From the IMG/VR virus record IMGVR_UViG_3300045988_020086: 50,115 nucleotides of DNA; one strand, given 5' to 3'. The stretch is from a virus. Of this stretch, positions 1 through 50,115 are shown in pieces. The first letter of the stretch is position 1, and each line of letters opens with the position of its first letter. The notes beneath the pieces were generated by a model, which saw nothing but the letters and a program-made list of their open reading frames with translations, ran no database searches and was not told the DNA's origin. The position numbers and the translations under genes were made by a program.

Positions 1-141
1 ATTTCCGAACGTCCATCTTGTAAGCCAGTTTACCACAGATCGGGGGTGATAGTCAAGCGGATACCCCAGCGGGGCCGCACCGCTCAAAGCGGCCCCGCCC
101 CACTACCCCGGCAGCCCGCCGGGGCAAACCTGAAAAGCAAA
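1..141. repeat. Direct terminal repeat (assembly overlap of a circular or terminally redundant genome)
   Basis: nt 1-141 are identical to 49975-50115, giving a unit length of 49,974 bp. Confidence 0.95.
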
Positions 142-503: not shown

Positions 504-618
504 CCCCCGCCGGACACCTTAGCAGGGCCGCACCGTAAAGCGACCCCGCCCCACTACCCCGGCAGCCGCCGGGAGATCATCCCGAACACCAACCACAACA
601 CGAAAAGGAGCAAGTACC
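504..618 (+). repeat. Early-operon intergenic module, copy 1
   Basis: CGGACAC..AGCAGGGCCGCACCG-AAAGCG.CCCC hairpin, CCCGGCAGCCGCCGGG hairpin, CACGAAA at 599, AAAAGGAG-N8-ATG. Confidence 0.85.
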
Positions 619-1662
619 ATGAAAGGCATGAGCAATAATCAGATCATCCTCAGCGAGGCCGAGAAGCTGGCCCCCGCCACCCTGCACGCCATCGCCACCG
701 CACACCACACCGCCGCCCAGATCGAAGCCCTGGCCGCTCAGATCACCGTGACTGAGGACGACGGCACCCAGCACCCCGGCACCACCCACGACGCGGAGAT
801 CATGTTGGCAGCCAGCGAGCTGCACACCTTCGACTACTGGAAGAAGGAAGGCAAGAGCGTCAAGCTCCACGAAAAGGCACTGATTGAATGCTACTTGTGG
901 AAGTACACCACGAAACCCAGCAAGGCCCAGCGGGAAGCGGCAGAGGCCGAAGGCAAGGAAGCTGCCCCCGATCCGCATTACTACCCGACAAAATCCCACC
1001 TGTTCAGCTGCCTGCAGGTGCAGGACAGCAAGCCCGCCCCCGCTGGCCGGTTCAGCTCCACCGCTGAGATCATCGCCTATAACAAGAAGCTGGCAGCCGA
1101 ACGCAAGGCCGCCGCAAAAGCAGCAGCAGAGCAGGCCGACACAAAAAACGCGCTGGACGTTCTCAAGCAGACGGAATGCAAGGCAAAGGCCGCTTTTCTG
1201 GCCGTGCCTGAAACCGACCGCAAAGCGCAGGCCGAAGCCCTCAGCGCGTGGCGCAAAGCCCGGCAGGATATAGCAGCCGCCGAGAAGCCCGCAGAGCCCA
1301 CCACGAAACCCGCCCCGGAGATCATCCCCGCCGGCGTGACGGACAAGAAGCCGGGCGGCTGGAAGAAGTGCAGCTTTTACGCTATCTGCACCACTCCGCA
1401 GAATCCCACCAACCACGCGGAGAAGCGGGACGGCTACACCGACGGCGTTTTCAACTACTACGCGCTCCACCTTGGCAAAGCCACGATCTGGTACGCCGTT
1501 CACCCTGCCTACGGTGTCAGCATCGGCCCCGGCCAGAACAGCCGGAGCGCAGCCAAAACCGCAGCGTTTGAACTTCTCGAATCCGTCGCAAAGATGGAGA
1601 AAACCCCCAGCGAACGCCTGAAGAACTGCGCCGCAATGGTCGCCGCCGCACAGAATGCGTGA
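619..1662 (+). CDS. Early protein of unknown function (347 aa)
   Basis: Strong RBS, long ORF, Ala/Lys-rich linker. The segment TFDYWKKEGKSVKLHEKA weakly recalls ArdC-N/DUF1738-type ssDNA-binding domains (unverified). Confidence 0.75.
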   Translation: MKGMSNNQIILSEAEKLAPATLHAIATAHHTAAQIEALAAQITVTEDDGTQHPGTTHDAEIMLAASELHTFDYWKKEGKSVKLHEKALIECYLWKYTTKPSKAQREAAEAEGKEAAPDPHYYPTKSHLFSCLQVQDSKPAPAGRFSSTAEIIAYNKKLAAERKAAAKAAAEQADTKNALDVLKQTECKAKAAFLAVPETDRKAQAEALSAWRKARQDIAAAEKPAEPTTKPAPEIIPAGVTDKKPGGWKKCSFYAICTTPQNPTNHAEKRDGYTDGVFNYYALHLGKATIWYAVHPAYGVSIGPGQNSRSAAKTAAFELLESVAKMEKTPSERLKNCAAMVAAAQNA

Positions 1663-1773
1663 ACACAACCCCGGACATCCCAGCAGGGCCGCACCGCCCA
1701 AAGCGGCCCCACCCCACTTCCCACCGGCAGCCCGCCGGGGGCATATCACGAAACATGAAAAGGAGTAAATACC
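1663..1773 (+). repeat. Early-operon intergenic module, copy 2
   Basis: Same two hairpins as copy 1, CACGAAA at 1747, AAAAGGAG-N8-ATG. Confidence 0.85.
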
Positions 1774-1956
1774 ATGAAAAAGTTTAACAACATCTTCGAG
1801 CAGATCAACGTGGAACTCCCCGCACTGTGGAAGATCCAGACCCTGCGCACCGAAATTCGGCTCAGCCCCTGCAAGGCCGCGGAACTTCAACCGCAGATCG
1901 ACGCGGCCCGGCTTACCGTCATCTGTGCCCGCCGCGGCTACCTGTACACCGCCTGA
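1774..1956 (+). CDS. Small early protein (60 aa)
   Basis: RBS AAAAGGAG-N8-ATG; flanked by modules on both sides. Confidence 0.6.
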   Translation: MKKFNNIFEQINVELPALWKIQTLRTEIRLSPCKAAELQPQIDAARLTVICARRGYLYTA

Positions 1957-2064
1957 CCCACCGCCGGACACTCTAGCAGGGTTGCACCGCCCAAAGCAGC
2001 CCCGCCCCATCGCCCCGGCAGCCCGCCGGGGAGCATACCACGAAACGAAAAGGAGATGCACACC
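1957..2064 (+). repeat. Early-operon intergenic module, copy 3
   Basis: Hairpin 1 is GGGTTGC(1979-1985)/GCAGCCC(1996-2002), i.e. changes on both arms that keep pairing. CACGAAA at 2039. Confidence 0.85.
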
Positions 2065-2637
2065 ATGACAGCATATCAACAGACCCACCAGCGCACCGCA
2101 TGGCTCCACTACGAGGGCAGCGACTACAACGGGCGGCAGATCGTCGTGGACGTGGCCGAGATCACCCCGGGCCGCTTCACCGTCGCCGCACTGGATGCCG
2201 AAGGGAACGAGATCGAGAGCGACGAGGTGGAAGACCTGGACACCGCCCGCCGCCTGTATGGGGAACTGTTCCGCCGCCTCACCGAGAAGCCCGCCACGAA
2301 ACCGCTTTCCGGCAAATACGCCAAGCTGCGGGATGACCTGCGGGCCGCGCTGGAAGCCGGACGCAACGCCGAACACGAAAACCCGGAAGACGGCGGCACC
2401 TGTAACTTTGATTCCGTCGCCCTCAGTCTTCCCCGCTGGCAGGCGGCAAAGGTGGAGCAGGCCGCCAAGGAAGCGGGCACGAGCTGCTTTTCTTGGGACC
2501 TGTTCGGGGGCCGTCGGTGGGTCTTCGGGCCGGACACCAGAGCGCAGGGCAACGCCCGCACACGAAACGCCGAAGCAATGACCCGGGCACTTGCCGGGAT
2601 GGGCTATCAGGCCATGGACTATTGCCAGATGGATTAA
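2065..2637 (+). CDS. Early protein of unknown function (190 aa)
   Basis: The start was moved to the second ATG (MTAYQQ), 9 nt after AAAAGGAG, because the track start at 2056 abuts the RBS. Acidic N-terminal half; C-terminal GTCNFDS..QGNARTRNAEAM segment. Confidence 0.7.
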   Translation: MTAYQQTHQRTAWLHYEGSDYNGRQIVVDVAEITPGRFTVAALDAEGNEIESDEVEDLDTARRLYGELFRRLTEKPATKPLSGKYAKLRDDLRAALEAGRNAEHENPEDGGTCNFDSVALSLPRWQAAKVEQAAKEAGTSCFSWDLFGGRRWVFGPDTRAQGNARTRNAEAMTRALAGMGYQAMDYCQMD

Positions 2638-2739
2638 ACGGACACCTTGACGGGCCGCACCGCAAAGCGACCCGATCCCACCGCCCCGGCAGCCCGCCGG
2701 GAGTATCACGAAATCCAACACGAAAAGGAGATACACGAA
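2638..2739 (+). repeat. Early-operon intergenic module, copy 4
   Basis: Same two hairpins; three CACGAAA copies (2707, 2719, 2734); AAAAGGAG-N9-ATG. Confidence 0.85.
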
Positions 2740-3675
2740 ATGCGTACTTACACCATCAACGAATCTGCCGCCCGCCTCTCTCACGAAATGCGGTCCTTCG
2801 ACGACTACGAGAAGGGCAGCGCAACCGCTGGCTACAATGCCGACGTTGCCGAGGCTGCCGCCATCCTGGAACGGGTCAAAGCCCTGTGCAGCACCGAGGC
2901 CCAGAAGGAACACGCCGAGTTTCTGTTTGACCGCTACGCCAAGACGCTGGCCGAAGCCATCAACCGAGACAACGAGATCGGCACCCGCTGCCCCAGCGTG
3001 ATGATCTGCGGGGCTGGCAACTTCCCGACCCGGAAGAAGGAGAAGCAGGTCAAAGCATGGGAAGCCAATCACGAAACCTTCCGCAAGGCGGAACACTATC
3101 TTGATCTGCTCAAGACCGCCCACACCCTCACCGTCAAGAGCAATGACCCCGAGGTGCTGGACTATCTCCGGGAGAAGCTGGCCGGGCTGGAAGCCGGGCA
3201 CGAAATGATGGTTTCCGCCAATGCCTATTACCGCAAAAACAAAACGCTGGACGGTTTCGATGGCATCCCCGCCGACACTATGGCATGGATCACGAAACCG
3301 AAGGTCTACCCCGCAGGCGGGCGGAACGGCGACGGGTCCCCGCTGCAGTTCCACGGCAAGCCCTTCCCGACCTACGCCCTCAGCAACAGCAACGCCAACA
3401 TCAAGCGGGTAAAGGAGCGGATCACGAAATTGGAAGCCGCCAAAGCCGCCGCCCCGGTGGAAGAAGAGCGCAGCGGCTACACCTACCGGGAAGACACCGA
3501 AGCCATGCGGGTGCAGCTGATCTTCGACGGCAAGCCCGATGACGAGACCCGCGAACTGTTGAAACGGAACGGTTTCCGCTGGTCTCCCCGCAACAGCGCA
3601 TGGCAGCGGCAGCTCACCGCAAACGGAAAGTATGCCGCACATCAGGTGATGGACGTTCTCGACGGCAACGTATAA
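2740..3675 (+). CDS. Early protein with a C-terminal GFRWSP module (311 aa)
   Basis: ATG lies after the RBS (the track start at 2647 is a TTG inside the module). The C-terminal segment LKRNGFRWSPRNSAWQRQL resembles the GF(R/K)W(S/A)P module of DUF3560-type proteins from mobile elements (recollection, unverified). Confidence 0.7.
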   Translation: MRTYTINESAARLSHEMRSFDDYEKGSATAGYNADVAEAAAILERVKALCSTEAQKEHAEFLFDRYAKTLAEAINRDNEIGTRCPSVMICGAGNFPTRKKEKQVKAWEANHETFRKAEHYLDLLKTAHTLTVKSNDPEVLDYLREKLAGLEAGHEMMVSANAYYRKNKTLDGFDGIPADTMAWITKPKVYPAGGRNGDGSPLQFHGKPFPTYALSNSNANIKRVKERITKLEAAKAAAPVEEERSGYTYREDTEAMRVQLIFDGKPDDETRELLKRNGFRWSPRNSAWQRQLTANGKYAAHQVMDVLDGNV

Positions 3676-3794
3676 CACGAAATCGGACACTCTGGCAGGG
3701 CAAGCACCGTAAAGCAGCCCCGCCCCACTACCCCGGCAGCCGCCGGGAGATCATCCCGAACACCAACCATAACACGAAAAGGAGCTGTCACGAA
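3676..3794 (+). repeat. Early-operon intergenic module, copy 5
   Basis: Near-identical to copy 1 over its 3' half; CACGAAA at 3676, 3773 and 3789. Confidence 0.85.
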
Positions 3795-11903: not shown

Positions 11904-12079
11904 GTGCGCACTTCTCCTATGGATTGAACATCAAACAGTTCAAATTCTGTATAGTGTTCTGCAGCTTGCTTCTTCGCCTCGCAAGCTGCTTCCTCTGTAT
12001 TGATAGCATCCAACGTATACTGCAGGCACTCTTTTGTTCCGCGTCTGTCGGATGCTCTCAGTAAGACACAGTACCTCAT
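11900..12079 (-). CDS. Small hypothetical protein (59 aa)
   Basis: Start MRYCV has an ATGA overlap with the upstream peptide stop. Confidence 0.4.
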   Translation of the reverse strand: MRYCVLLRASDRRGTKECLQYTLDAINTEEAACEAKKQAAEHYTEFELFDVQSIGEVRT

Positions 12080-12201
12080 ACAAACAGATACCCCCAGCAG
12101 AACTTCACCAGCGCAGCAGGCACCAGCAGCAAAACCGCCGCCCAAATTGCCGCGGCCAGCAGAAGCAGAACCGTACCGAGAGTTTTAACCAGTCCATCCA
12201 T
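12076..12201 (-). CDS. Small membrane peptide (41 aa)
   Basis: MDGLVKTLGTVLLLLAAAIWAAVLLLVPAALV, one TM helix; GAGG RBS. Confidence 0.35.
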   Translation of the reverse strand: MDGLVKTLGTVLLLLAAAIWAAVLLLVPAALVKFCWGYLFV

Positions 12202-12211
12202 GCTTTTTACC

Positions 12212-12832
12212 TCAACCTTCCTGCTCGTCTTCATCGTTCCGCACCTGACAGGCAGGTGCGGATATGGGATTTTTGATCTTGGCGACGGGGCGGACACCAG
12301 CCTCACCCGAGGCGTTGTCGTAGGTGCAATCCCCGTTGCCGGTCGCGTGGGCGAAATAGGCTGCCGAGTTCGGCACCCGATTCTGGAGCCAGTACCATTC
12401 CCATCCGCCGTTCAAGCCCTGGGAAGCAATGCGATTCTTCCTCTGCTTCATCGGCTTCCATTGGCTCACGCTTTCGGGTTCATCTTCACCACACGGGTTT
12501 GAGCCGAAGATTTCCTTTTCCGTCGGCAGGCGCAGCAGGTCGCCGTTTTCAAAAGGCAACAACAGCTTCCTGATTTTCTGGGGGAAGCGGTCAAGGATTT
12601 CACCGTTCAGCTTCTTCCGCAGGTCGGAGGCATCCCAGCCGCCCGCATTGGTGTTCTGTGCGTTCATGCTGTATTCCTTTGCCAGGCAGTCCGCAAAACA
12701 GAAGATCATACCGTCGTTTTCTTCCTTGACGGCCAGCATCTCTACCTTTTCACCATCGGACAGCTTAAAGCGAATGACATCGCCTACCCGGAACAGGTCA
12801 ACCTTGATTTTCTCGGTTCTTCTTACTTTCAT
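12212..12832 (-). CDS. Second DGR target protein with a C-type-lectin-fold-like variable C-terminus (206 aa)
   Basis: C-terminus WYWLQNRVPNSAAYFAHATGNGDCTYDNASGEAGVRPVA aligns to the TR-encoded peptide. N-terminal part has W..S.LRKKLN-type motifs seen in Firmicutes DGR targets. No signal peptide. Confidence 0.85.
   Translation of the reverse strand: MKVRRTEKIKVDLFRVGDVIRFKLSDGEKVEMLAVKEENDGMIFCFADCLAKEYSMNAQNTNAGGWDASDLRKKLNGEILDRFPQKIRKLLLPFENGDLLRLPTEKEIFGSNPCGEDEPESVSQWKPMKQRKNRIASQGLNGGWEWYWLQNRVPNSAAYFAHATGNGDCTYDNASGEAGVRPVAKIKNPISAPACQVRNDEDEQEG
12239..12261 (-). promoter_or_regulatory. Hairpin downstream of VR2 (DGR target-recognition element candidate)
   Basis: CCGCACCTG-5 nt-CAGGTGCGG, 19 nt 3' of the GC-rich VR end. 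Confidence 0.6.
12281..12368 (-). repeat. DGR variable repeat 2 (VR2)
   Basis: 88 nt align to TR. All 9 mismatches fall at TR adenines on the coding strand. Confidence 0.9.
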
Positions 12833-12844
12833 GTCGATTCCTTT

Positions 12845-13400
12845 CTATTCTAATTCATTGCCCCACGCATCCCAACCAGGAGTACGCTTTCGGGCGAACA
12901 ATTCAATACGAGGAACATCTCCCAGCAATTCTACAATTCGCTTACGCGTTTCGTCCGGCTTTGCACTATGTTCTTGTATCGGTGTTTCAATCACTTGATG
13001 TACAGCATGGCTCTTGACCCGATCAGCGGCCTTGAATCCAGGCGTTACACCAAGCAAACAGATTTCCGCATTTGCCCTCGTGTAAGCCCCCATGCCCCAA
13101 AAATTTGTATCGCTCTTGCGGTTTTTCTTGATCCAAACAAAGGCGCAGGTCTTGTACTCAAAACCCCACGCCTCCATAACTCGCAGAGCATCGGCAATTT
13201 GTGGAAACGTAGCCCACATGAAGCAGGCCGTGCCCCCCCCCCGCCAGGTCATTGACCGGCAATGCGCAGATGTCATCCGTCGTCATTGTGTGATAGTGCT
13301 GAGCCGCATTGCCCCGGCTTTTAGGTCCTGTTCCACACTGACGGTAGCTCCACGGCGGATCAGCATAGATTACGGAATACTTTTTATCCGGGAAATCCAT
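12845..13400 (-). CDS. MT-A70-family N6-adenine DNA methyltransferase, frame broken at a G10 tract as assembled
   Basis: N-terminal part carries DPPW (YADPPWSY). The C-terminal part CFMWATFPQ..AWGFEY..VWIKK..SAKPDE continues in the +1 frame. G9 would fuse the two parts (..LAGGGTACFMW..). Confidence 0.85.
13233..13242 (-). repeat. Homopolymer G10 (C10 on the + strand) inside the MT-A70 gene
   Basis: Read directly from the sequence; encodes a Gly run. Confidence 0.95.
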
Positions 13401-13402
13401 GT

Positions 13403-13915
13403 TTATCTCACCGCCTTTACCATCTGTTCAACCGTTCTTCTCCGCAGCCTACGCCAAGATTCACCGGGTTCGCGTTCTACTCCAACTGTCTTTGCCAATT
13501 TCTCAAGAACATCTTCTCCGATTTCCATGACCGCCACTGCCTCGGATTCGTCCGCCACGTCCAATCCAGAGTATTTGCTTAAATTCTCTGGATGCTCAAA
13601 ACGTCCATTCCGTACCCGAACGGAGCGATCATCCCAATATTCGGATGCTCCAACTTTCCGCGGGTTATTTCCATATTCTTTTTTCCAAGACGGCAGGCTT
13701 TCATTTACCGCATCGAAGTGTAATTCCCACTCCTCGCAGGCTTTCAAAGCGGCATCCAGCATTTCACCCTCTCGACAGGTCCAGAGGATCAGCCCTGCGC
13801 CATTTGCCTGTTCCATCTTCGCTTCTGCTATGATTTCCCAGTTCGGCTCTCCGATATTGGGATAATCATTTGTGCAAAGCGTTCCATCGAAATCAATGGC
13901 AATCGCTTTTTGCAT
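13403..13915 (-). CDS. HAD-superfamily hydrolase-like protein
   Basis: Start MQKAIAIDFDGTLC (DxDGT motif I). Confidence 0.6.
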   Translation of the reverse strand: MQKAIAIDFDGTLCTNDYPNIGEPNWEIIAEAKMEQANGAGLILWTCREGEMLDAALKACEEWELHFDAVNESLPSWKKEYGNNPRKVGASEYWDDRSVRVRNGRFEHPENLSKYSGLDVADESEAVAVMEIGEDVLEKLAKTVGVEREPGESWRRLRRRTVEQMVKAVR

Positions 13916-13916
13916 A

Positions 13917-14474
13917 TCAGCCGTCCTCCTTGATGATCCAGACCTGGTGTTCGCCGTATCCATCCCAGTTCAAAGCGTCTTCATGGCTGCCAGAAACAGC
14001 AACGTCCAGGTGATTGCCCTGCACCGCATTGCCCCTGTCCTGAACAATGCGGATTCCTACATCTTCGATGTAGATCACTGTGCCATAGGGTAGGAGCGTT
14101 TGGTCTGCCGCCACGGTCACGCCCGCCTGAATCGGCTGACCGCTGGCCGTGATCCCGGTTCCAGTGCCGCAAATGTGCGACCATTTCTCGGTGCAGTAGG
14201 CAGTGCATTTGAAAATCCCGGCATACTCGACATCTAATTTTTCGTCCAGTTTGCTCATGATTTTCAGTTCGTCCGCCAGATCGTCAGCGTACTGGGCGAC
14301 GATTCCAGCGGTGCCCTCCCAGTCCTCGGCGCGGGATTTGTAAATATCCCGCTGCATCTCCAAGTCATTGATCCGGCCGTTTGCCATGCCAACGGCAATT
14401 CCGCTGGCGACCGTTGCGCAAATCGCGGCAGTTACAGCCAGCTTCGACAGGGTATCAGGTCTCATTTTCTTCAT
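13917..14474 (-). CDS. Membrane-anchored 3D-domain (MltA/RlpA-like) protein
   Basis: N-terminal TM LSKLAVTAAICATVASGIAV. C-terminal FKCTAYC..GITASG..VAAD..LPYGT..IEDVG. Confidence 0.6.
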   Translation of the reverse strand: MKKMRPDTLSKLAVTAAICATVASGIAVGMANGRINDLEMQRDIYKSRAEDWEGTAGIVAQYADDLADELKIMSKLDEKLDVEYAGIFKCTAYCTEKWSHICGTGTGITASGQPIQAGVTVAADQTLLPYGTVIYIEDVGIRIVQDRGNAVQGNHLDVAVSGSHEDALNWDGYGEHQVWIIKEDG

Positions 14475-16398
14475 CCTCCGATTTTTGGAACACAACAGGC
14501 AGGTGCCCATGTGTTTGTGCGCGGAGTGTTCCTGTTACATTCACAGAAACGTCCATATTCTTCCCGCCTTGGTCGTTCAGCACCAGCGATTCCATCAGCC
14601 TTTGATCCTGTACGACGGCGGTTTTATTTCCGCCTGCCCCAGTCATCAGGGTCGGGCTGCATTCTTCTGAATAGCCGATTCCGCCAGAATTTCCAAGGTC
14701 AAACCCGGCAGCACGTTGGATCAGGCTTTGGTCTTGGCGTGTCGCCAGCGTCGCGGAAAGTTCCGTCTGCACCAGCGGACCTTTGCCGCCGCCCTCACAG
14801 CCTTGCCGGATTTTCAGGGTGTAGGCTCGTTCTGCCCCCCCCCCCTCGGAGCTTTCCTGCTTCCACCATGCGATCATGCCATGAATAGCAGTCAGGAGCA
14901 AGGCAGGCAACGGTCTGCCCCCCCTCCTGGAGGCGCGGTCTAAAATGCCATTCAGTGCCGTCATGCTCAAAAGCGACCATCGTGGCGGATTCTCCACGAG
15001 TATCGCAGACAGCATATATTCTTCGGCGACGGTGGGGGATTCCCCAATATTGAGCGTTGACAATTCGATAGGCAACAGCTCCGTAGGACACAGCCTTTGC
15101 CCATTTTCCATGCTGGCAAATAGGCTTATCTGTTCCACCTCCGGCAAAATCTCGGAGGTGCAAAAGCTCGTTGAGAACAATTTCAAAATCCTTTCCGCCA
15201 TGCGACGACAGCGCACCCGGCACATTTTCCCAAATGACAAAGCGCGGATACCTTCCGCCTGTAGCAGACAGCATTTCCCGGATGACCCGGATTGCTTCAT
15301 AGAACAGGCAGCTTCGGTCGCCGCCCAGTCCTTTGCGCTTTCCCGCAATGCTCAGGTCTTGGCAAGGAGAGCCGAAAGTGATGATGTCCACCGGCTCGAT
15401 CTGACCGCCTTTGATGTCCGTTATGCTGCCGAGGTGTTGCATCTCCGGCAGGTGTGTTTTGGTAACGGCAATAGGGTAAGGCTCCACTTCGCTTGCCCAT
15501 ACAGCCCGCCCGCCGCACATCACAGCACACAGTGGCATGGTCCCGCTTCCATCGAACAGGCTACCCAGCTTTACCTCCGCCGCAGGCTTCCCCAATTCCC
15601 GGAAAGCATTTTGGACGAAGAACAGGGCATTCGGCAAGGCCATTCCGTTGCCCCACATGGAATACTCCGCCGACGGACTGTGCAGCTCGTCGTGCCATCT
15701 CTTCACTGCGGCATCGCTTCTGGCTCCATCCGCCCGGGCAATAATCTTCTTCGGTTTCTGCCCTTTGATCTTGCAATTTCTCAGGTACACTTCCCGCCAG
15801 AACTTGGTTTCTTCTGCGTCCGTCAGCGGTGCGATTTCTCCCCAGCCATCTGGAAAACCCTGTAGCCGCCCGCATTCCATCGGCAACAGGCGGCGCACGA
15901 TCCATTCCGGCAGGCGCGGCACATCCGGCTGAATGACCGGGTTGATGTAATTCAAACTCCATCCCCCTGATTCTTTCGCTTGGAGCGTTCCGCTCACTGT
16001 ACCGTTCAGGCGGCTGTTTCTGGCATCGTAGGCCACCGCATGACGATCTTGTGTGTTCAGCGTGAACGAAGCATTCTCTCGGACACCACTTCCATTTTGG
16101 TTTGTGTTTCGGTCAACGAAGTTCCCAGCAAGGCAGAACGAGTTGTAGCCTACAATGGTTCTGTCCCTGTCCCGGCTCAGTGTCGGTGCGGTGTTCATCA
16201 GGCGTTCGGCGTTGGTCTGGGTGGATGCAATGCAGCACACGTCTTTCTCACCGTTCACGCCGCTGCCCCCCCCCCTCGAACCAGAATGGCCTGCGACCGC
16301 ATGGTGCTGGCGGTGTGCATCAGCGAAGGAGCTACGCCGTCCGCATCGTATACCCGTTTTCCCTGCGGGAAGTCCTGGGTCAAGCATTTAATCTCCAT
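14455..16398 (-). CDS. C5-cytosine DNA methyltransferase with permuted motif order, interrupted at two G tracts as assembled
   Basis: ATG at 16398 after AGAGGA. Motifs in this order: ECGRLQGFPDGW (IX), GNGMALP (X), LFDGSG (I), GSPCQDLS (IV), ENV (VI), QYWGIPHRRRRIY (VIII), then TL-type target-recognition segments. Total span is 1944 nt (a multiple of 3). Confidence 0.8.
14835..14845 (-). repeat. Homopolymer G11 in the C5-MTase (core / C-terminal module junction)
   Basis: Read directly from the sequence; G10 would join ..KLRGGG to AERAYTLKIRQ.. Confidence 0.95.
16266..16275 (-). repeat. Homopolymer G10 in the C5-MTase (after codon 44)
   Basis: Read directly from the sequence; G11 would join ..ILVRGGG to GSGVNGEKD.. 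Confidence 0.95.
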
Positions 16399-16416
16399 GG
16401 TTTTCCTCTTTTCTTG

Positions 16417-16490
16417 TGCGAACGGTCGGCATCGAACCGACCCGTCTGTTGATGATGGGGAATCGGAAACAGGCGGCACCTTGCGCTCGC
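16417..16490 (-). ncRNA. tRNA-like element (acceptor-like stem plus canonical T-arm; no full cloverleaf)
   Basis: 5' GCGAGCG pairs with 3' CGTTCGC (one G-U pair). T-arm GTCGG-TTCGATG-CCGAC. 74 nt long. The 3' end lies 18 nt upstream of the MTase ATG. Confidence 0.35.
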
Positions 16491-16828
16491 ATATCAGACC
16501 CGCTCCGTAAGAGAGGTACAGAGCGGGGCGGCCACTACAATGGCCTGTTGCTTTTGGCCTGAGCAAGTTGAACAGGGTGTTTCTACGCTCACACTGCGGC
16601 GCACCCGTTCCCGTCATATCCATGCGGGTGCGGCTTCGGCAAGAACGGCAGCCCGGTTTTGCATCGGGCTTGAACGGAAAGGAGGACGCTGCTGTACAGC
16701 ACCGCTCCGCCGTGCCGGGTGGCTGACTTCATGGCCGTGCTCGGCTTTCATGGAAAGCATTAAGCAGGCGCAGGCGGGGTCCGGCCCCGCTCACGGTGTC
16801 CCTGTACCAGAAAGGCACCCCGCGCCAC

Positions 16829-16864
16829 ATAAAAAGCAGCCCCGCTTCTGCGGGCAGGGCTGCC
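16829..16864 (-). terminator. Intrinsic terminator
   Basis: GCAGCCCTGCCCGC-AGAA-GCGGGGCTGC followed by TTTTTAT on the - strand. Confidence 0.7.
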
Positions 16865-16943
16865 TATCGTTCTACCGGGGACAATGCTTTGTATCAGCAG
16901 CATCGTTTCCCTCATAGTGCTTGCACTCCACGTCGTAACCACT

Positions 16944-17381
16944 TCACGGGGCGCAGTGAGCGGCAGTGATTTTGAATGTATGCTTGCACTGTTCTACGTC
17001 ATTCTTCTTCGTGCCCCTGTGCGGGGCGATTCCGATATGTGCGCTCCTCGCCAAACTCTTGACCCTCCTTGCTTTATGTAGGTAACTGCACCGTCCAAGT
17101 GGGGACGTGTTGCAGCGTTTGTCCTGCACCACTTCCCAGTGCTCCGGCGGGTTGAAGTTTATCCGCCGCCGAGGTTTCAACCACCCTTCGAGGAAGTAAG
17201 GATCGCTGCCCCATTCTATAGCTGTTTCATCCGCCCATTCCATCAGCTTTTTCACCGATTCCGGCAGTTCAAAGCTCCCGTCCCATAGGGTTCCGTCAGC
17301 TTCTGTGACATCCGGCATCTCCGCAGGTATCTCTATTCGCTCACCGCTCGGAAGTTCAAGATAGGCGGCACACCCGCTCAC
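16944..17381 (-). CDS. Hypothetical protein (145 aa)
   Basis: GTG start 7 nt after GGAGG, with a GTGA overlap on the HD-protein stop. Confidence 0.5.
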   Translation of the reverse strand: MSGCAAYLELPSGERIEIPAEMPDVTEADGTLWDGSFELPESVKKLMEWADETAIEWGSDPYFLEGWLKPRRRINFNPPEHWEVVQDKRCNTSPLGRCSYLHKARRVKSLARSAHIGIAPHRGTKKNDVEQCKHTFKITAAHCAP

Positions 17382-18920: not shown

Positions 18921-19625
18921 CTACCTCATGTGAAATAAGCTGGTTTGGTTCGTGTAATTCGCAAAGCGTTCTTCCTGCGTCTTGAAATAGAACGGGTCGA
19001 TTTCAAAGCCGATAAAGTCAACACCCGCTTCATAGGCGGCAATTCTGCTGTTGCCACTTCCGAGGTGAGTATCAAGAACTTTCTGTCCAGGCTTTGCGAA
19101 ATTCTGAAAAATCCAGTCATACAGAACAATCGGCTTCTGCGTTGGGTGAACTCGTACTTCATTCAGGCTTTTGTTTCCCTGCATGATATGCCCTTCGGAA
19201 ATGCTCTTGCCCTGCATCATCCCGCTCCACATATAGCGGAATAGTCTGACCGTCTTGAGTAGGTCTGTTGCCGCAATCTCGCAGTCGGAAAAACTTGTTG
19301 CTTGGTTGCACTTATCCCATACGATACGCCCCGGAGCAAAGCCATAGCTGAAATAGTTGCAGCCCCATATAATATAGTGTCGGCTCACTCGCATCAGTTC
19401 GTCGAAATACTCTTTTCCCGGCACTTCCCATGCGGGAGATACTGGGTAATCCCGATGCACTCCGATCCGGCTGACCTTTGATCCATAGAAGCCGCGACGT
19501 TCTGGTCCGCTGAAATAAGGCGGGTCTACCACAGCGAGATCAAAATAGTCATTCGGAAATGCAGCCATTGCTTCCATGCAGTCCATGTTGTAGCAATGAT
19601 TCAATTCAAACGTCTGCGCCGTCAT
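18921..19625 (-). CDS. Beta-class N6-adenine/N4-cytosine DNA methyltransferase (N6_N4_Mtase-like)
   Basis: DPPY motif (VVDPPYF) precedes the C-terminal SAM motif LDTHLGSGNS. Confidence 0.8.
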   Translation of the reverse strand: MTAQTFELNHCYNMDCMEAMAAFPNDYFDLAVVDPPYFSGPERRGFYGSKVSRIGVHRDYPVSPAWEVPGKEYFDELMRVSRHYIIWGCNYFSYGFAPGRIVWDKCNQATSFSDCEIAATDLLKTVRLFRYMWSGMMQGKSISEGHIMQGNKSLNEVRVHPTQKPIVLYDWIFQNFAKPGQKVLDTHLGSGNSRIAAYEAGVDFIGFEIDPFYFKTQEERFANYTNQTSLFHMR

Positions 19626-20019: not shown

Positions 20020-21310
20020 TGATTTTTTGTGTATTTTAGCGCAACACAAACAGGCCGTCAAGTTTTGCTTCCTTGCAGCCTCTTTCATTCGTTCAGTTTT
20101 ACCAATCCTTTCTTCCCACCCCGCCTTTCCAGCTATGCGCTCGCTCTCTTATATAATGGTTACTTTACTTTTCGTTATGCGGTCAGCCCCAGTTCCCGCA
20201 GGCATTGGCGGAACATGGTCGCCGCACTCTTATACCCGTGAATCTTCCGGGGGTAGTTGTTGATCCAGTTCTCCGTAGCTGCGATTTCTTCCTGGGTCAC
20301 ATTGGCAAAGTTCGTTCCTTTGGGATGACGTCTGCGAATCATGCCATTCACATTCTCATTGCTGCCCCGCTCCCAAGAGGAATACGGGTGGCAGTAGTAC
20401 ACCTTCGTCCGCTGGCCGTCGATCAGGCAGGAACGCTCGATCTCGTCCGCCATTGCGAACTCGGTTCCGTTGTCCACAGTGATGCTCTTATATATAGTGC
20501 CGAACTTCTCTGCGCCAAGCTTCCGTTCTATGGCATCCAGTGCCCGCACGGTCGTTTCCGCACGGCGGTTCGGAACAAGGATGATCTTCTCATTCCTGGT
20601 CTTGCGCTCGGTCAGTACCAGCAATGCCGCGGTGCTTTTCTTTTTGCCGGAGTATACCGTGTCCATTTCCCAGTGTCCAAATTCTTCCCGGCTCTGGATT
20701 TCTTCCGGGCGTTTATCAATGCTTTCTCCTGCCGGCGCACGGGCAGGTTCCTTCTTCTTCACCTTTTTATATTCGTTCTTATGTACGCCATGCCTGGGCA
20801 AAGCTACCTGTGTCAGGTTCAGAAACACGCCTTTCTTGATGTAGCTGTAAATGGTAGGAACGGAGATGTGGGTCTTGAATGTCCGTCCTTCTTCCATTGC
20901 ATAGCCATACACTGCCGCCGGGGAGCAGTCTTTCTCTATAATAGTCTGTTCGATATAAGCTGCCAACTCATGGTCCTTTCCGATTTTAAGGTCCGGTCCT
21001 TTTTCTCGGAGGTTTGCTTGATACCTCTGTTCCGCTATATCTGGGCTGTACGTCGGGATTATCTCCCATGTTTTGCCGTCCAGCCTGTCATAGCTGCCCC
21101 GTTTTAGTTCCCGGTATACCGTCGAAGGATCAACACGCAACTTTTCCGCTATCTCTCGTGTCCTCATTCCTTCCTTTTTCCACTTCTCAATGCGAAGACG
21201 GTCCGTAAAGTTTAGGTGTTTGAACACTCTCACGCCCTGTTCCTCCTTTCAATTCTGGCGTTTCTTTGCATTTCAAGCGTAAAAGATACGATGTGCTGTT
21301 GTCAATATGC
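20020..21310 (-). mobile_element. IS30-family insertion sequence (ends approximate)
   Basis: Single transposase ORF in a lower-GC segment lying between two terminators. Terminal inverted repeats are only tentatively seen (near 20028-20045 and 21285-21300). Confidence 0.6.
20175..21233 (-). CDS. IS30-family transposase
   Basis: N-terminal HTH (REIAEKLRVDPSTVYRELKRG) plus DDE core (WEMDTV...VDNGTEF...NENVNGMIRR). Confidence 0.9.
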   Translation of the reverse strand: MRVFKHLNFTDRLRIEKWKKEGMRTREIAEKLRVDPSTVYRELKRGSYDRLDGKTWEIIPTYSPDIAEQRYQANLREKGPDLKIGKDHELAAYIEQTIIEKDCSPAAVYGYAMEEGRTFKTHISVPTIYSYIKKGVFLNLTQVALPRHGVHKNEYKKVKKKEPARAPAGESIDKRPEEIQSREEFGHWEMDTVYSGKKKSTAALLVLTERKTRNEKIILVPNRRAETTVRALDAIERKLGAEKFGTIYKSITVDNGTEFAMADEIERSCLIDGQRTKVYYCHPYSSWERGSNENVNGMIRRRHPKGTNFANVTQEEIAATENWINNYPRKIHGYKSAATMFRQCLRELGLTA

Positions 21311-22887: not shown

Positions 22888-23241
22888 TTACATATCCTCC
22901 AGGTCAATATCGCTGTTCATGGCGAGGTAATCAAGCTGTGCCCGTACCCGCATTTTGAACAGTTCATCTTCGGACAGTTCCCGCAGGATGAACCACCACT
23001 TGCCATCCGGGTTATCCTCGGGCGGGGTAATCTGCACAAGCTCCGCGTTGTGCAGGGTGTCCGAGTAGGCGCACCCGGTCATATCGCCGTCACTGGCAGA
23101 AATATGCACCTCCGATAAATTGCCGTCGAAAATATCCGCCGTGATCTCAGTCTCCGACTGGAAGTTATTGCCGCCCAGCGTCAGGTTTTCAATCAGTGTG
23201 CCATCAGCCAGCGCAACCGTCCATGTCCGTGTTTCTTCCAT
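22888..23241 (-). CDS. Hypothetical tail-fiber-associated protein (117 aa)
   Basis: GGAAGGAG RBS. Sits in the position equivalent to XkdW, ahead of XkdX. Confidence 0.55.
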   Translation of the reverse strand: MEETRTWTVALADGTLIENLTLGGNNFQSETEITADIFDGNLSEVHISASDGDMTGCAYSDTLHNAELVQITPPEDNPDGKWWFILRELSEDELFKMRVRAQLDYLAMNSDIDLEDM

Positions 23242-24443
23242 GTTGGCTCCTTCCCGAACAAGTCCTTAAACAAGTTCGTCATATTGTGAATTTGCTTCCT
23301 GCTCATGTACTTGTAATTGGCGCAAATCCATGATTTGTAAGAATTTTCGATTTCCTCATAGGTCATTACTCCGGCATCCATTTTCCGCTTGTACGCTTTG
23401 AGCTTCCGTCGTTCTCTCGTGATGGCTTTTGGGTTGATCTTTCGGATAATCCGCCCATCTTCCTGCAAAGAATAAAGCACTTGCAAGTGGCGATACTGGC
23501 CGGACAATTTACAGATGTGGGTTTTCTTTTCGTTGATGATGATTCCCAACTTTTCTGCCCACTGCCTGACCCCGGCCATTACCTCTTGCAAATGCTCTTT
23601 GCTTTTGTCGATGATGTAGAAATCGTCCGAATATCTTCCATAGCCCTTCACTGCGCACACGATCTTGACGTAGTTATCAATGGGCACCGGGAGAAATATT
23701 CCTGTATTTTGTGAAACTTGGTTGCCTATATCTGCGCCCTTCCGCAGCATTTTCTCGCCCGTCAGGGCGGATGATGGAACGCCAATATTGAGCGTTGAAC
23801 GCACCTTTTCATGGTACATTTTCTCGATTTCCTCATCTGCGAAACGGGAAACATCCAATTCAAAAGTGCGGAATGCCAACCGCAGTTTGTCCATAACATC
23901 CGCCAGTTCTTCCGGGTCTTTGATTTCCCGCGCAAGATACTGGCTGAACTGGGCCAATGCGACTTCATGCACAATGTTGTCGTAGTAGCCGGAGAAGTCC
24001 GAGAATCCGATGTAACCTTCATTCGTGCCCTCCCGCTCATAGTATTTTCGCAGCTGGATTTCAAAGCGATGCCGATGAAACGCAACACCTTTTCCAACCT
24101 GTGAAGACGAATTGTCGTACTGCAAATATTTTTGAAGCAGCGGTGTGAGGTATTCGTCGCAGGTAATGTGGTTCACCGCCTTGTCTGCGGTTGCTGCACT
24201 CGTGATATACCGTGCGTGACCTCTTTCCTTGATGCCAAATTTCAAGCCCGGCTCAGGCTTATATGTGCCGTCCTCCATGGCTTTCTGAATATGCGCAGTT
24301 TCGAGCAGATGATTTATCTCGTATAACTGCGTTTTATATTTGAACATCGACGCTTTCATTGCTTTGGTTCCTGCTTCATGGATATAATTTGCATCTGTGT
24401 ATTTACTCATATTTCCCTGAAATAAACTGTACAATAGCTCCAT
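23193..24443 (-). CDS. DGR reverse transcriptase
   Basis: RT motifs include the DGR-typical IGNQVSQ (I/LGxxxSQ) and YSDD (GRYSDDFYII). Lies immediately 3' of TR. Confidence 0.95.
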   Translation of the reverse strand: MELLYSLFQGNMSKYTDANYIHEAGTKAMKASMFKYKTQLYEINHLLETAHIQKAMEDGTYKPEPGLKFGIKERGHARYITSAATADKAVNHITCDEYLTPLLQKYLQYDNSSSQVGKGVAFHRHRFEIQLRKYYEREGTNEGYIGFSDFSGYYDNIVHEVALAQFSQYLAREIKDPEELADVMDKLRLAFRTFELDVSRFADEEIEKMYHEKVRSTLNIGVPSSALTGEKMLRKGADIGNQVSQNTGIFLPVPIDNYVKIVCAVKGYGRYSDDFYIIDKSKEHLQEVMAGVRQWAEKLGIIINEKKTHICKLSGQYRHLQVLYSLQEDGRIIRKINPKAITRERRKLKAYKRKMDAGVMTYEEIENSYKSWICANYKYMSRKQIHNMTNLFKDLFGKEPTWKKHGHGRLRWLMAH

Positions 24444-24560: not shown

Positions 24561-24660
24561 AGCCCGGCGACGGGGCGGACACCAGCCTCATTCGAGGCGT
24601 TGTTGTAGTTGCAATTCCCGTTGTTGTTCGCGTTGGCGAAATAGGCTGCCGAGACAACGT
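24561..24660 (-). repeat. DGR template repeat (TR)
   Basis: 100 nt homologous to VR1 and VR2. The coding strand is rich in AAC/AAT codons (NVVSAAYFANANNNGNCNYNNASNEAGVRPVAG). Confidence 0.95.
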
Positions 24661-40448: not shown

Positions 40449-40465
40449 AGCTTTTTATCCTCCTA

Positions 40466-47377: not shown

Positions 47378-48444
47378 TCATTCTGTACAGTCATACAGCA
47401 GCGCACCCATCGCCGCTGTACACAAAACATAGTCGTGATCCACATCGTTCAGGATGTTTATTACCGATACATAGTCGCCATACCCGTTTTCTACTAATTT
47501 ATCCTGTATGGTCTTGGACGCTTCAACTGTTGTCGATACAATATTCTTCCACGCGTTTTTCTGTGCCGCATTTCCCGACTTCGCCAGCGTAGCGCACATT
47601 GCATTGCCATCCGACCAGATATAGATTGTATACCCCGAATCGTCCTTTTCCAGTTGATAGTCAGAGCCAAAACCACGCTCTAAAGCATTTTCAAGCAATG
47701 CGGTCATCTCATTCTCTGAAATTTGATGGGAAGATTCGTTTTCTTCACTTACGGCTGTGTATGGATATTCCAGATAAACATACTGCGCATTTGAATCGTC
47801 TTTTTTTCTGACCAGTTCTCCTGTAAGGCATTCACCCTCAATTCCAACTTCGTTAGATACGCCGTTCCAAAGCTGGTCTTTCATGTCCATTGTGACGGTG
47901 AAAACGTATTCTCCCTGCAATGGCCTGCTTCCATGAAATGCGTCATTGCTTTCTGCTGTTCCATTTTGCACTTTAACCGTTTCGCTTTTCTCAAAGTCAT
48001 TTCCTACTAAGCTAAATCGCAGTGTCGCACCCTCCGGCAAATTGGTATGAACAACAAATATAGGGGCATCGCTTTCTCCATTTGTCTCCACATTCATTTC
48101 CACGGGGAACTGCTTTAGCTTGTACGAAGTGATTTCAACTGGAACATTGCTCTCCCACGCCTGATCCTTTTTATAATTATCCTCGCCGTCAATGGTAATG
48201 CTTTCCACCTTGTCATTTTTAGACAACGAGACCGTTTCAACTTCTTCCGTTGTTATTTCAGTAAAGCCAGCAGTCTGCAATTCAGAGATGGCATCTTCCA
48301 AAGACAGCTTTTTACAATCCGTGCTGCTGAATGGTGCCTTTGCTGGATTTTTCAACCCGCAGCCCACCATAAAGGCACAACAAGCAACTGTGGCGGCAAG
48401 AGCTACGAATCTCTTACCCCCCCCCCGGGTATTTTGAACATCAT
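47378..48444 (-). CDS. Lipoprotein moron with PASTA-like segment, frame broken at a G10 tract as assembled
   Basis: GAAAGGAG-N9-ATGATG start. With G11 the N-terminus would read MMFKIPGGGGKRFVALAATVACCAFMVGC (signal peptide plus lipobox). The region is AT-rich relative to the genome. Confidence 0.7.
48417..48426 (-). repeat. Homopolymer G10 at codons 7-10 of the lipoprotein gene
   Basis: Read directly from the sequence. Confidence 0.95.
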
Positions 48445-49974: not shown

Positions 49975-50115
49975 ATTTCCGAACGTCCATCTTGTAAGCC
50001 AGTTTACCACAGATCGGGGGTGATAGTCAAGCGGATACCCCAGCGGGGCCGCACCGCTCAAAGCGGCCCCGCCCCACTACCCCGGCAGCCCGCCGGGGCA
50101 AACCTGAAAAGCAAA
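49975..50115. repeat. Direct terminal repeat (second copy)
   Basis: Identical to nt 1-141. Confidence 0.95.

What the first reader, a model, noticed from the sequence alone, without database searches (positions are those of the whole stretch)
12845..13400. G10 tract splits the MT-A70 adenine methyltransferase (candidate contingency locus)
The DPPW-containing N-terminal ORF (13158-13400) and the C-terminal catalytic ORF (12845-13276) overlap at a run of ten G (13233-13242, - strand). G9 would give one intact protein (..VNDLAGGGTACFMWATFPQ..).

The Gly run is encoded purely by GGG codons. Elsewhere in the genome, Gly runs use mixed codons; for example GGC GGC GGT GGC in gpV near 29384-29400. 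This is one of four tracts of 10 or more G in the genome. All four are on the coding strand, all lie in genes typical of phase variation, and all are out of frame as assembled. The explanation is either slipped-strand ON/OFF switching of phage self-methylation or a homopolymer sequencing error.
Basis: partly seen in the sequence, partly recalled or inferred. Interest (0 to 1): 0.7.

Follow-up and report, generated by a model that had tools for sequence, protein, structure and literature searches.

The report
Hypermutable poly-G switch in phage methyltransferase
A run of ten Gs splits an adenine DNA-methyltransferase gene in a human-gut phage, and comparison with about 200 related sequences shows it is a conserved, fast-mutating length switch that turns the gene on and off, not a one-off sequencing error.

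Summary
A G10 tract (13233-13242, - strand) splits an MT-A70 adenine methyltransferase, and G9 restores a 184-aa protein that matches the whole Pfam profile. The window is a complete circular ~50-kb contractile-tailed phage from a short-read metagenome assembly.

Relatives support the contingency-locus reading:
- The tract sits at the same codon position across a clade whose synonymous sites are saturated. Its length ranges from 5 to 14.
- Seven assemblies with one identical 491-bp flank haplotype carry G7, G8 or G10.
- All 106 tract-less homologues are in frame, but only 12 of 44 tract-bearing ones are (about 1/3, as random length predicts).
- Out-of-frame alleles remain under strong purifying selection (dN/dS 0.02-0.10).
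- In-frame alleles encode GG, GGG or GGGG at a helix-strand junction.

Sibling tracts behave the same way: three in one circularly permuted C5-methyltransferase and one after the start codon of a lipoprotein gene.

Not shown: switching within a clone, the true tract length in this sample, and the methylation phenotype. The likely role is bet-hedging of phage DNA methylation against restriction systems, but that is inferred. The closest analogue is the T2 agt contingency locus. This is a new member of a known, recently recognised kind.

The parts
13233..13242 (-). G10 homopolymer tract, the switch itself. In this allele the in-frame lengths are 6, 9 and 12.
   Evidence: Same-allele assemblies carry G7, G8, G9, G10 and G11. 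A G12 allele occurs as protein P0001 and a G6 allele in L002.
12845..13400 (-). MT-A70 family N6-adenine DNA methyltransferase gene, interrupted as assembled (184 aa if G9).
   Evidence: PF05063 full-length hit. PDB sequence hits to MTA1 and METTL3. AF2 model with pLDDT 86.6. Foldseek TM 0.77-0.80 to METTL3 and MTA1.
13158..13400 (-). N-terminal ORF (80 aa) with the catalytic DPPW motif. It runs into an out-of-frame tail after the tract.
12845..13232 (-). C-terminal coding part of the methyltransferase, downstream of the tract. The listed ORF 12845-13276 begins at an out-of-frame internal ATG.
   Evidence: There are no stop codons, and dN/dS is 0.02-0.10 between out-of-frame alleles.
14455..16398 (-). 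Single circularly permuted C5-cytosine methyltransferase gene (motif order IX-X-I-IV-VI-VIII-TRD) carrying three variable G tracts. It is out of frame at two of them as assembled.
   Evidence: Relatives have continuous 641-aa and 723-aa ORFs when the tracts are in frame (L016, L017).
16266..16275 (-). G10 tract near the 5' end of the C5-MTase gene (in frame at 8 or 11).
   Evidence: Relatives carry 5, 7, 8, 9 or 11.
14918..14924 (-). G7 tract in the C5-MTase gene, in frame here.
   Evidence: Relatives carry 7, 8, 9 or 10.
14835..14845 (-). G11 tract in the C5-MTase gene (in frame at 7 or 10).
   Evidence: Exact-flank relatives carry 7, 8, 10, 11 or the interrupted GGAGGGG.
48417..48426 (-). 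G10 tract six codons after the start of a putative lipoprotein gene (in frame at 8 or 11).
   Evidence: AAAGGAG RBS, then ATGATGTTCAAAATACCC-G10, then KRFVALAATVACCAFMVGC. Exact-flank relatives carry 7, 10, 11 or 12.
47378..48444 (-). Putative lipoprotein gene (signal peptide and lipobox read by eye; function unknown).
   Evidence: phrog_29396, unknown function; no Pfam hit; no NCBIfam hit.

Best explanation
The G tract is a simple-sequence-repeat contingency locus inside a phage-encoded orphan MT-A70 N6-adenine DNA methyltransferase.

Proposed mechanism:
1. Slipped-strand mispairing during replication adds or removes Gs.
2. Lengths of 6, 9 or 12 encode GG, GGG or GGGG at a helix-to-strand junction and give a full-length enzyme (ON).
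3. Other lengths terminate translation after the DPPW-containing N-terminal 80 aa (OFF).
4. The switch is reversible, so a phage population is a mixture of methylating and non-methylating genotypes.

The same design recurs in a permuted C5-cytosine methyltransferase (three tracts) and in a lipoprotein gene, giving several independently switching modules.

The most likely benefit is bet-hedging of the phage's DNA methylation pattern. Methylation protects against classical restriction-modification systems but exposes the DNA to methylation-dependent (Type IV) restriction, or is costly to the host.

Shown: the tract, its frame effect, its positional conservation, its length hypervariability, and continued purifying selection on the gene.

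Inferred: the slippage mechanism, reversibility within a lineage, enzyme activity and target, and the selective benefit.
For: - Non-random tract.
- Frame logic and an intact family fold.
- Positional conservation with length 5-14 across sub-lineages at 68-99% nucleotide identity; more distant homologues have mixed codons at the site.
- 17 independent assemblies of the same allele (0-6 mismatches in about 491 bp) carry G7-G11.
- One identical flank haplotype carries G7, G8 and G10.
- Tract-less homologues are in frame 106 of 106. Tract-bearing ones are in frame 12 of 44 (27%; not different from 1/3, p=0.43; Fisher p=4.6e-23 against tract-less).
- Out-of-frame alleles of different sub-lineages give dN/dS 0.02-0.10 with pS 0.42-0.79 and no stop codons in either half.
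- The site is the only internal indel hotspot among 49 intact homologues. In-frame GG, GGG, GGGG and GGGQG variants exist.
- Alleles with an interrupted tract (GGGGAGGGGG, GGGAGGGGG) are in frame in 4 of 5 loci.
- Sibling tracts vary in the same way.
- G versus C runs of 8 or more on the coding strand are 83 versus 2 in the clade, clustered in the MTase module.
- Independent case: Phage nd4 (OR777945.1) has its MT-A70 annotated as two CDSs split at a G7 tract near the same site.
- Functional analogue: the A9 tract in T2 agt switches DNA glucosylation reversibly, about 1000-fold faster than a SNP reverts, to escape TgvAB versus McrA/BC: PMC12633550.
Against: - No reads were available, so heterogeneity within a single population, the hallmark of phase variation, is not shown. 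The G10 call for this contig could be off by one.
- All data are consensus sequences of short-read metagenome assemblies. Library PCR and Illumina chemistry add some length noise at long G runs, and two of the 17 contigs have only about 1x coverage.
- The samples may not be independent.
- In the window's own allele only 1 of 18 assemblies is in frame (p about 0.007 against 1/3). The enzyme seems to be mostly OFF, which fits a gene that is rarely needed but also fits one that is dispensable.
- P0001, the G12 in-frame allele, has DPPW mutated to DPLW.
- The methylation target, the activity and any restriction trade-off are untested.
- The host and the phage lifestyle are unknown. No integrase was found.
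Confidence: 0.8

Rival explanations
1. Homopolymer sequencing or assembly error: the true gene is intact (G9) everywhere, and the other lengths are artefacts of short-read sequencing or consensus calling at long G runs.
For: - Long G homopolymers are error-prone in library PCR and Illumina chemistry (general knowledge).
- The window is a k=141 short-read assembly.
- Two of the comparison contigs have about 1x coverage.
- The exact length in this contig cannot be checked without reads.
Against: - The consensus lengths span 5-14. Within one allele they are bimodal at 8 and 10, with 9 the rarest. Noise around a true G9 would peak at 9.
- Assemblies made with different assemblers and in different studies agree on the phenomenon.
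- Error cannot explain why a pure-G tract is conserved at one codon position while synonymous sites saturate.
- Error cannot explain why interrupted tracts are in frame, or why G runs outnumber C runs 83 to 2.
Confidence: 0.05
2. Non-adaptive mutational hazard: the tract really is hypermutable, but it is only a fragile site that keeps knocking out a dispensable accessory gene. There would be no selected switching function.
For: - Most tract-bearing alleles are out of frame (32 of 44), and 17 of 18 in the window's own allele.
- One in-frame allele has a mutated catalytic motif, and one allele carries a compensated frameshift that garbles 24 residues (P0001 and P0009).
Against: - dN/dS is 0.02-0.10 between alleles that are both out of frame, with no secondary stops or frameshifts in either half. 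The gene has therefore spent most of its history being expressed and selected.
- A fragile site with no benefit should be erased by synonymous GGG to GGN changes, which are freely available. Instead the tract outlasts saturated synonymous divergence, while intact genes in this genome avoid long G runs.
- The same design recurs in a second methyltransferase and in a lipoprotein gene.
Confidence: 0.08
3. Programmed recoding: out-of-frame alleles are still expressed through transcriptional slippage or ribosomal frameshifting on the G run. The tract would then tune expression level rather than switch the gene off.
For: - RNA polymerase slippage on long homopolymers is known in bacteria and phages, mainly at A/T runs (general knowledge).
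- Out-of-frame alleles are common yet the gene stays under purifying selection.
Against: - +1 and -1 out-of-frame alleles (G10 and G8) and in-frame alleles coexist on the same haplotype. So there is no conserved frameshift direction or fixed recoding site.
- No downstream stimulatory structure was looked for or seen.
- Slippage would give at most leaky expression on top of the DNA-level switch, not replace it.
Confidence: 0.07

Closest known systems
Contingency locus in phage T2 agt (A9 tract in the alpha-glucosyltransferase gene; Gomez, Barrick & Waters 2025 preprint, PMC12633550)
   Same: Both are intragenic mononucleotide repeats in a phage DNA-modification gene. Changes of +/-1 inactivate and restore the gene reversibly. 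The modification has opposing costs and benefits under different host restriction systems.
   Different: T2 has A9 in a lytic coliphage and a glucosyltransferase, with switching shown experimentally. Here the tracts are G7-G14 in orphan m6A and m5C methyltransferases of an uncultured gut phage, with comparative evidence only. Here the tracts are far longer than any other run in the genome and are conserved across a whole clade.
Hypermutable polyG tracts of Campylobacter Fletchervirus phages (Sorensen et al. 2021, Cell Rep 35:109214; cited in PMC12633550 and PMC12823448)
   Same: Both have poly-G tracts of 7-11 in phage coding sequences that generate phenotypic subpopulations (as described).
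   Different: The Campylobacter tracts are in receptor-binding proteins and alter host recognition. Here they are in DNA methyltransferases and a lipoprotein. The host is a high-GC gut Firmicute rather than Campylobacter, whose own genome uses polyG switches.
Bacterial phasevarions (phase-variable Type III mod, Type I hsdM/hsdS and Type IIG methyltransferases of Haemophilus, Neisseria, Helicobacter, Streptococcus suis; PMC5909438, PMC7383803, PMC6265453)
   Same: In both, a simple sequence repeat inside a DNA methyltransferase ORF toggles the reading frame and hence genome-wide methylation.
   Different: The known cases are chromosomal, linked to restriction-modification systems, and belong to other MTase families. 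Their known output is a change in host gene expression. Here the enzymes are phage-borne orphans of the MT-A70 and C5 families, no partner nuclease gene was identified in the ORFs examined, and a regulon effect is untested.
Poly-G tract in a methylase gene of Bordetella phage BPP-1 (Liu et al. 2004, as summarised in PMC12633550)
   Same: Both have a poly-G tract in a phage methylase gene, and BPP-1 also carries a diversity-generating retroelement, as this phage does.
   Different: The BPP-1 tract was only noted in passing and not studied. The primary paper could not be read here, so the tract position, the enzyme family and any variability are unknown to me.

Membership tests
MT-A70 family methyltransferase (PF05063) | Full-length match to the family profile above the curated cut-off | tested here: met
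   The repaired 184-aa protein scores 90.4 bits (cut-off 23.9) over profile positions 1-172 of 172.
MT-A70 family methyltransferase (PF05063) | Catalytic DPPW motif (motif IV) near the N-terminus | tested here: met
   D14-P15-P16-W17 are present. D14, P15 and W17 are invariant and P16 nearly invariant in 49 homologues.
MT-A70 family methyltransferase (PF05063) | Fold of the METTL3/MTA1 catalytic domain | tested here: met
   AF2 model with pLDDT 86.6 and pTM 0.87. Foldseek gives 5il1_A TMq 0.77 (E 5e-17) and 9u9e_A (MTA1c) TMq 0.80.
MT-A70 family methyltransferase (PF05063) | N6-adenine methylation of DNA at a defined motif | not testable with these tools
   This needs a methylome of a cloned G9 allele. 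Deposited phage homologues are annotated as adenine DNA methyltransferases, which is annotation only.
Simple-sequence-repeat contingency locus (phase variation) | A repeat tract within the ORF or promoter, much longer than chance or the genome background | tested here: met
   G10, against a maximum run of 6 in intact genes. Shuffles expect 0.37 matches against 5 observed.
Simple-sequence-repeat contingency locus (phase variation) | Tract length differs between otherwise near-identical genomes | tested here: met
   G7, G8 and G10 occur on one identical 491-bp haplotype. G7-G11 occur across 17 same-allele assemblies.
Simple-sequence-repeat contingency locus (phase variation) | Length changes toggle the reading frame between a full-length and a truncated product | tested here: met
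   In-frame lengths are 6, 9 and 12 and the rest are out of frame. 12 of 44 tract-bearing alleles are in frame, against 106 of 106 tract-less ones.
Simple-sequence-repeat contingency locus (phase variation) | The gene stays functional over time (OFF is transient) and the tract itself is maintained | tested here: met
   dN/dS is 0.02-0.10 between OFF alleles with no secondary lesions. The tract persists although pS is 0.42-0.79.
Simple-sequence-repeat contingency locus (phase variation) | High-frequency, reversible switching within a clonal population | not testable with these tools
   This needs raw reads or single-plaque lineages. Only consensus assemblies were available.
Phasevarion (phase-variable regulon) | ON/OFF switching of the methyltransferase changes expression of a set of genes | not testable with these tools
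   No expression or methylome data exist. I therefore do not file this as a phasevarion, only as a phase-variable methyltransferase candidate.
Phage DNA-modification contingency locus (T2 agt type) | ON and OFF states are each favoured by a different host defence (trade-off) | not testable with these tools
   The host is unknown. The closest homologues are in Clostridiales and Oscillospiraceae MAGs.
Sequencing/assembly artefact | Length differences are small, centred on the in-frame length, and not conserved in position across lineages | tested here: not met
   The range is 5-14 and bimodal at 8 and 10 with a dip at 9. The position is conserved across saturated divergence.

The most novel reading that the evidence does not exclude
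A whole clade of human-gut Clostridia phages runs a multi-locus 'epigenetic phasome'. An MT-A70 m6A methyltransferase, a circularly permuted m5C methyltransferase with three tracts and a lipoprotein each switch independently through poly-G slippage. A two-target diversity-generating retroelement sits alongside them. Each burst would then release virions with different methylation patterns and surface or exclusion states. This would hedge between hosts armed with classical restriction-modification systems and hosts armed with methylation-dependent restriction. The depletion of the ON length in sampled populations would reflect a real cost of methylation.
Probability: 0.35. Interest if true: 0.8.

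Novelty: new member of a known kind. Interest (0 to 1): 0.6.

Why it matters
Phase variation through repeat slippage is a classic bacterial strategy, and it has only just been recognised in phages (T2/T4 in 2025, Campylobacter phages in 2021). This case would extend it to the DNA methyltransferases of an abundant, uncultured clade of human-gut phages.

It would also give a concrete, testable model for how phages cope with the opposing threats of methylation-sensitive and methylation-dependent host defences.

There is a practical consequence too. 'Frameshifted' methyltransferase genes in viromes should not be auto-corrected or dismissed as pseudogenes or errors. Tract lengths read from long-read metagenomes could serve as a direct measure of phage population state.

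Tried and rejected
1. A near-identical deposited phage genome was sought with megablast of 12000-17000 against 50,697 phage records. There was no match. The closest deposited MT-A70 is 69% identical.
2. The dual-coding idea: both frames between motif VIII and the G tracts of the C5-MTase looked protein-like, which suggested the tracts might swap alternative peptide segments. Rejected. The frame-2 peptide has no tblastn hit in phages, while the frame-1 peptide matches annotated C5-MTases of Faecalibacterium, Ruminococcus and Acutalibacteraceae phages.
3. The idea that 16398-14455 is two MTase genes was rejected. Relatives with in-frame tracts have one continuous 641-723-aa ORF with permuted motif order.
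4. A lysogeny module was sought to decide whether switching acts in lysogens. Pfam and PHROGs on about 40 ORFs of both strands found no tyrosine or serine integrase and no recognisable repressor (only generic transcriptional-regulator hits), only an IS30-like transposase. The lifestyle is unresolved.
5. Host identification through genome contigs found only MAG contigs of phage size, from Clostridiales and Oscillospiraceae. There was no isolate.
6. The primary BPP-1 paper (Liu 2004) is not held, so that precedent rests on a secondary description.
7. NCBIfam gave no hit for the MT-A70 or the lipoprotein.
8. The exact-flank scan for tract 16266-75 found only one other contig. Variability at that tract therefore rests on the looser anchor-based comparison.
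9. The neighbourhood identity of the closest relatives is only 92-97% over 12 kb. A whole-genome 'identical but for the tracts' comparison was not possible, and the haplotype test within the gene was used instead.

Full report
**The observation**

The - strand of the window carries ten consecutive Gs at 13233-13242. An 80-aa ORF (13158-13400) begins MDFPDKKYSVIYADPPW and runs into the tract. A 143-aa ORF (12845-13276) leaves it in another frame. Deleting one G gives a 184-aa protein that matches the Pfam MT-A70 profile end to end (positions 1-172 of 172, E 1.7e-25).

The window has exactly four runs of 10 or more, all poly-G on the - strand. The run-length spectrum breaks sharply: 27 runs of 5, two of 6, one of 7, then three of 10 and one of 11. 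Dinucleotide-preserving shuffles expect 0.37 G10 matches against 5 observed.

GGG is the rarest Gly codon (14.5%). None of the 14 Gly runs in 25 intact genes is pure GGG. The longest coding-strand G run in those genes is 6, below the 7-8 typical of synonymous shuffles. The tracts are therefore real and non-random.

**Context**

The first and last 141 bp of the window are identical. It is therefore a circular contig of 49,974 unique bp with a k=141 overlap, which is typical of a short-read MEGAHIT assembly.

It encodes a complete contractile-tailed phage on the - strand: small and large terminase, portal, protease, capsid, sheath, tape measure, baseplate and tail fibre. No deposited phage is closely related. 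The nearest cellular hits are gut Clostridiales and Oscillospiraceae MAG contigs of phage size. No integrase was found, so the lifestyle and host are unresolved.

**What the relatives show**

A scan of IMG/VR with the repaired protein returned 80 loci. At the homologous codons, sub-lineages down to about 68-72% nucleotide identity keep an uninterrupted G run whose length ranges from 5 to 14. Some lineages carry interrupted versions (GGGGAGGGGG, GGGAGGGGG). Homologues below about 65% identity have ordinary mixed codons, for example GCC GCC AAG GAT TGC.

- **Frame status follows the tract.** All 28 tract-less viral homologues and all 78 tract-less genome/MAG homologues are in frame. Only 12 of 44 tract-bearing ones are, a fraction of 27% that does not differ from the 1/3 expected if length is free (p=0.43). 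The contrast with tract-less homologues gives Fisher p=4.6e-23. Four of the five interrupted-tract loci are in frame.
- **The tract mutates faster than the flanks.** A pattern search fixing this allele's exact flanks and leaving the tract free recovered 17 independent human-gut assemblies, with 0-6 mismatches in about 491 bp. They carry G7 (1), G8 (5), G9 (1), G10 (7), G11 (1) and two interrupted forms. Seven of them share one identical flank haplotype yet carry G7, G8 or G10. Tract length therefore changes faster than any point substitution accumulates in 500 bp.
- **Out-of-frame alleles are not decaying.** Pairs of alleles from different sub-lineages that are both out of frame give dN/dS of 0.02-0.10. 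Synonymous sites are near saturation (pS 0.42-0.79), and neither half contains a stop codon. The gene has been selected as a protein throughout, so OFF states are transient. The pure-G tract has also outlasted the turnover of ordinary synonymous sites, so it is itself maintained.

**Where the tract sits in the protein**

The closest solved structures are the Tetrahymena DNA m6A methyltransferase MTA1 and human METTL3. An AlphaFold model built on 49 homologues is confident (pLDDT 86.6) and superposes on both (TM 0.77-0.80).

Gly54-56 lie at the junction of a short helix (49-52) and the long central strand. In the alignment this is the only internal indel hotspot (AG-G-G, AGGGQG, GGGGQG, AK-E-G, CSPD-G). 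Natural in-frame alleles encode GG (G6/G7), GGG (G9/G10) or GGGG (G12, protein P0001). The site tolerates exactly the length changes that a slipping tract generates.

**The other tracts**

The region 16398-14455 is one circularly permuted C5-cytosine methyltransferase with motif order IX-X-I-IV-VI-VIII-TRD. It reads as a continuous 641-723-aa ORF in relatives whose tracts are in frame. It carries three variable tracts:

- 16266-75 is G10 here and 5-11 in relatives.
- 14918-24 is G7 here and 7-10 in relatives.
- 14835-45 is G11 here, and 7, 8, 10 or 11 in 15 exact-flank contigs.

The fourth long tract (48417-26) lies six codons after a well-placed start (AAAGGAG, then nine bases, then ATGATG) of a gene encoding a signal peptide with a lipobox. 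Exact-flank relatives carry 7, 10, 11 or 12.

Across 51 clade loci (513 kb) there are 83 G runs of 8 or more on the coding strand against 2 C runs. They cluster at the MT-A70 site and in the C5-MTase. A fourth methyltransferase (N6_N4 family, 18921-19625) has no tract and is intact.

**Mechanism**

The best-supported reading is a slipped-strand contingency locus. Replication slippage changes the G count. In-frame lengths give active enzyme, and other lengths truncate it after 80 aa. The tract, the frame logic, the hypervariability and the maintained selection are shown. Slippage as the cause, reversibility within a lineage, enzyme activity and the benefit are inferred.

The most plausible benefit is bet-hedging of phage DNA methylation between hosts with classical restriction-modification systems (methylation protects) and hosts with methylation-dependent restriction (methylation is lethal). 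This is the trade-off shown experimentally for the A9 tract in T2 agt, which toggles DNA glucosylation to escape TgvAB versus McrA/BC (PMC12633550).

One unexplained feature remains. In the window's own allele the in-frame length 9 is the rarest, lying between modes at 8 and 10. Only 1 of 18 assemblies is in frame (one-sided p about 0.007 against 1/3). This hints at a cost of the ON state in sampled populations, although the samples may not be independent.

**Rivals**

- **Pure sequencing error** is very unlikely for the phenomenon. The range is 5-14, the distribution is bimodal around the in-frame length rather than centred on it, the position is conserved, and interrupted alleles are in frame. 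Error still cannot be excluded for the exact G10 call in this one contig.
- **A non-adaptive fragile site** is hard to square with dN/dS of 0.02-0.10, with the tract persisting through saturated synonymous divergence, and with the same design recurring in three genes.
- **Programmed recoding** has no fixed direction, because G8, G9 and G10 occur on one haplotype. It could at most add leakiness.

**What is known**

Repeat-driven phase variation of methyltransferases is well established in bacteria for Type I, Type III and Type IIG enzymes (phasevarions). In phages, polyG tracts are known in Campylobacter phage receptor-binding proteins. Contingency loci were described in T2 and T4 in a 2025 preprint, which also mentions, without follow-up, a polyG tract in a methylase gene of Bordetella phage BPP-1. 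A 2026 review of prokaryotic methyltransferases treats phase-variable and phage-encoded enzymes separately and lists no phage-encoded phase-variable one.

I also found a deposited complete genome, Phage nd4 (OR777945.1), whose MT-A70 gene is annotated as two CDSs split at a G7 tract near the same site.

This case is therefore a new member of a known, recently recognised kind. What distinguishes it is the enzyme families, the gut-phage clade, the multi-locus arrangement and unusually strong comparative support.

**Verdict**

- The contingency-locus interpretation is supported.
- The functional story is inferred.
- Interest is 0.6.

Noticed in passing
window 23193-24443 (RT), 24561-24660 (TR), 25280-25379 (VR1), 12284-12368 (VR2): The phage has a diversity-generating retroelement with two targets. 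VR1 lies at the 3' end of the tail-fibre gene 25270-26598. VR2 lies at the 3' end of ORF 12212-12832 (DUF6273), the gene immediately downstream of the MT-A70 gene. All core mismatches fall at template adenines. The phage therefore combines two different targeted hypermutation systems, as Bordetella phage BPP-1 reportedly does.
   Followed up: partly
window 1-141 and 49975-50115: The two ends share an exact 141-bp repeat. The window is therefore a circular contig with a k=141 overlap (short-read MEGAHIT-style assembly) and a unique length of 49,974 bp.
   Followed up: yes
window 14455-16398 (- strand): The C5-cytosine methyltransferase is circularly permuted (TRD part, IX, X, I, IV, VI, VIII, TRD part) in this lineage. 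More distant relatives (L011, L037) have the standard motif order. Pfam and TIGR00675 recognise only the I-VIII part.
   Followed up: partly
same-allele loci L161-L176, L023 (MT-A70 tract): The tract-length distribution is bimodal at 8 and 10, with the in-frame 9 the rarest (1 of 18 including the window). This suggests selection against the ON state in sampled populations, or non-independent samples.
   Followed up: partly
51 clade loci (L001-L047 etc.), 513 kb: The strand asymmetry of long homopolymers is extreme: 83 G runs of 8 or more against 2 C runs on the coding strand, and only 2 A runs and 2 T runs. One possible reason is that Gly runs are tolerated where Pro runs are not. A replication-strand effect was not examined.
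   Followed up: no
L195 = OR777945.1 (Phage nd4) 39964-40606: In this deposited complete phage genome, the MT-A70 homologue (about 50% identical) is annotated as two CDSs, 'hypothetical protein' and 'MunI-like protein'. They are split at a G7 tract (CTGTGGGGGGGTATAG) a few codons upstream of the same beta strand. L064 has the same G7 in frame. This may be an independent origin of the same switch.
   Followed up: partly
proteins P0009 and P0001 (relatives of the MT-A70): P0009 carries a frameshift at the tract that is compensated about 24 codons downstream, garbling the conserved CFMWATFP strand. P0001 is a G12 in-frame allele with the catalytic DPPW changed to DPLW. These could be signs of occasional permanent inactivation, or assembly errors.
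   Followed up: no
window 18921-19625 (- strand): This is a fourth DNA methyltransferase (PF01555 N6_N4_Mtase, CcrM-like). It is intact and has no G tract. Not every methyltransferase of this phage is switchable.
   Followed up: partly
window 20175-21233 (- strand): This ORF is an IS30-like DDE transposase (HTH_38 + rve; phrog_4646) lying between the methyltransferase module and the DGR. It is the only recombinase found. Whether it is an insertion sequence or the phage's integration enzyme is unknown.
   Followed up: no
window 577-3690 (- strand): This 1037-aa ORF has no Pfam or PHROG hit. It is the second-largest gene of the phage and of unknown function. It contains six of the 14 mixed-codon Gly runs.
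   Followed up: no
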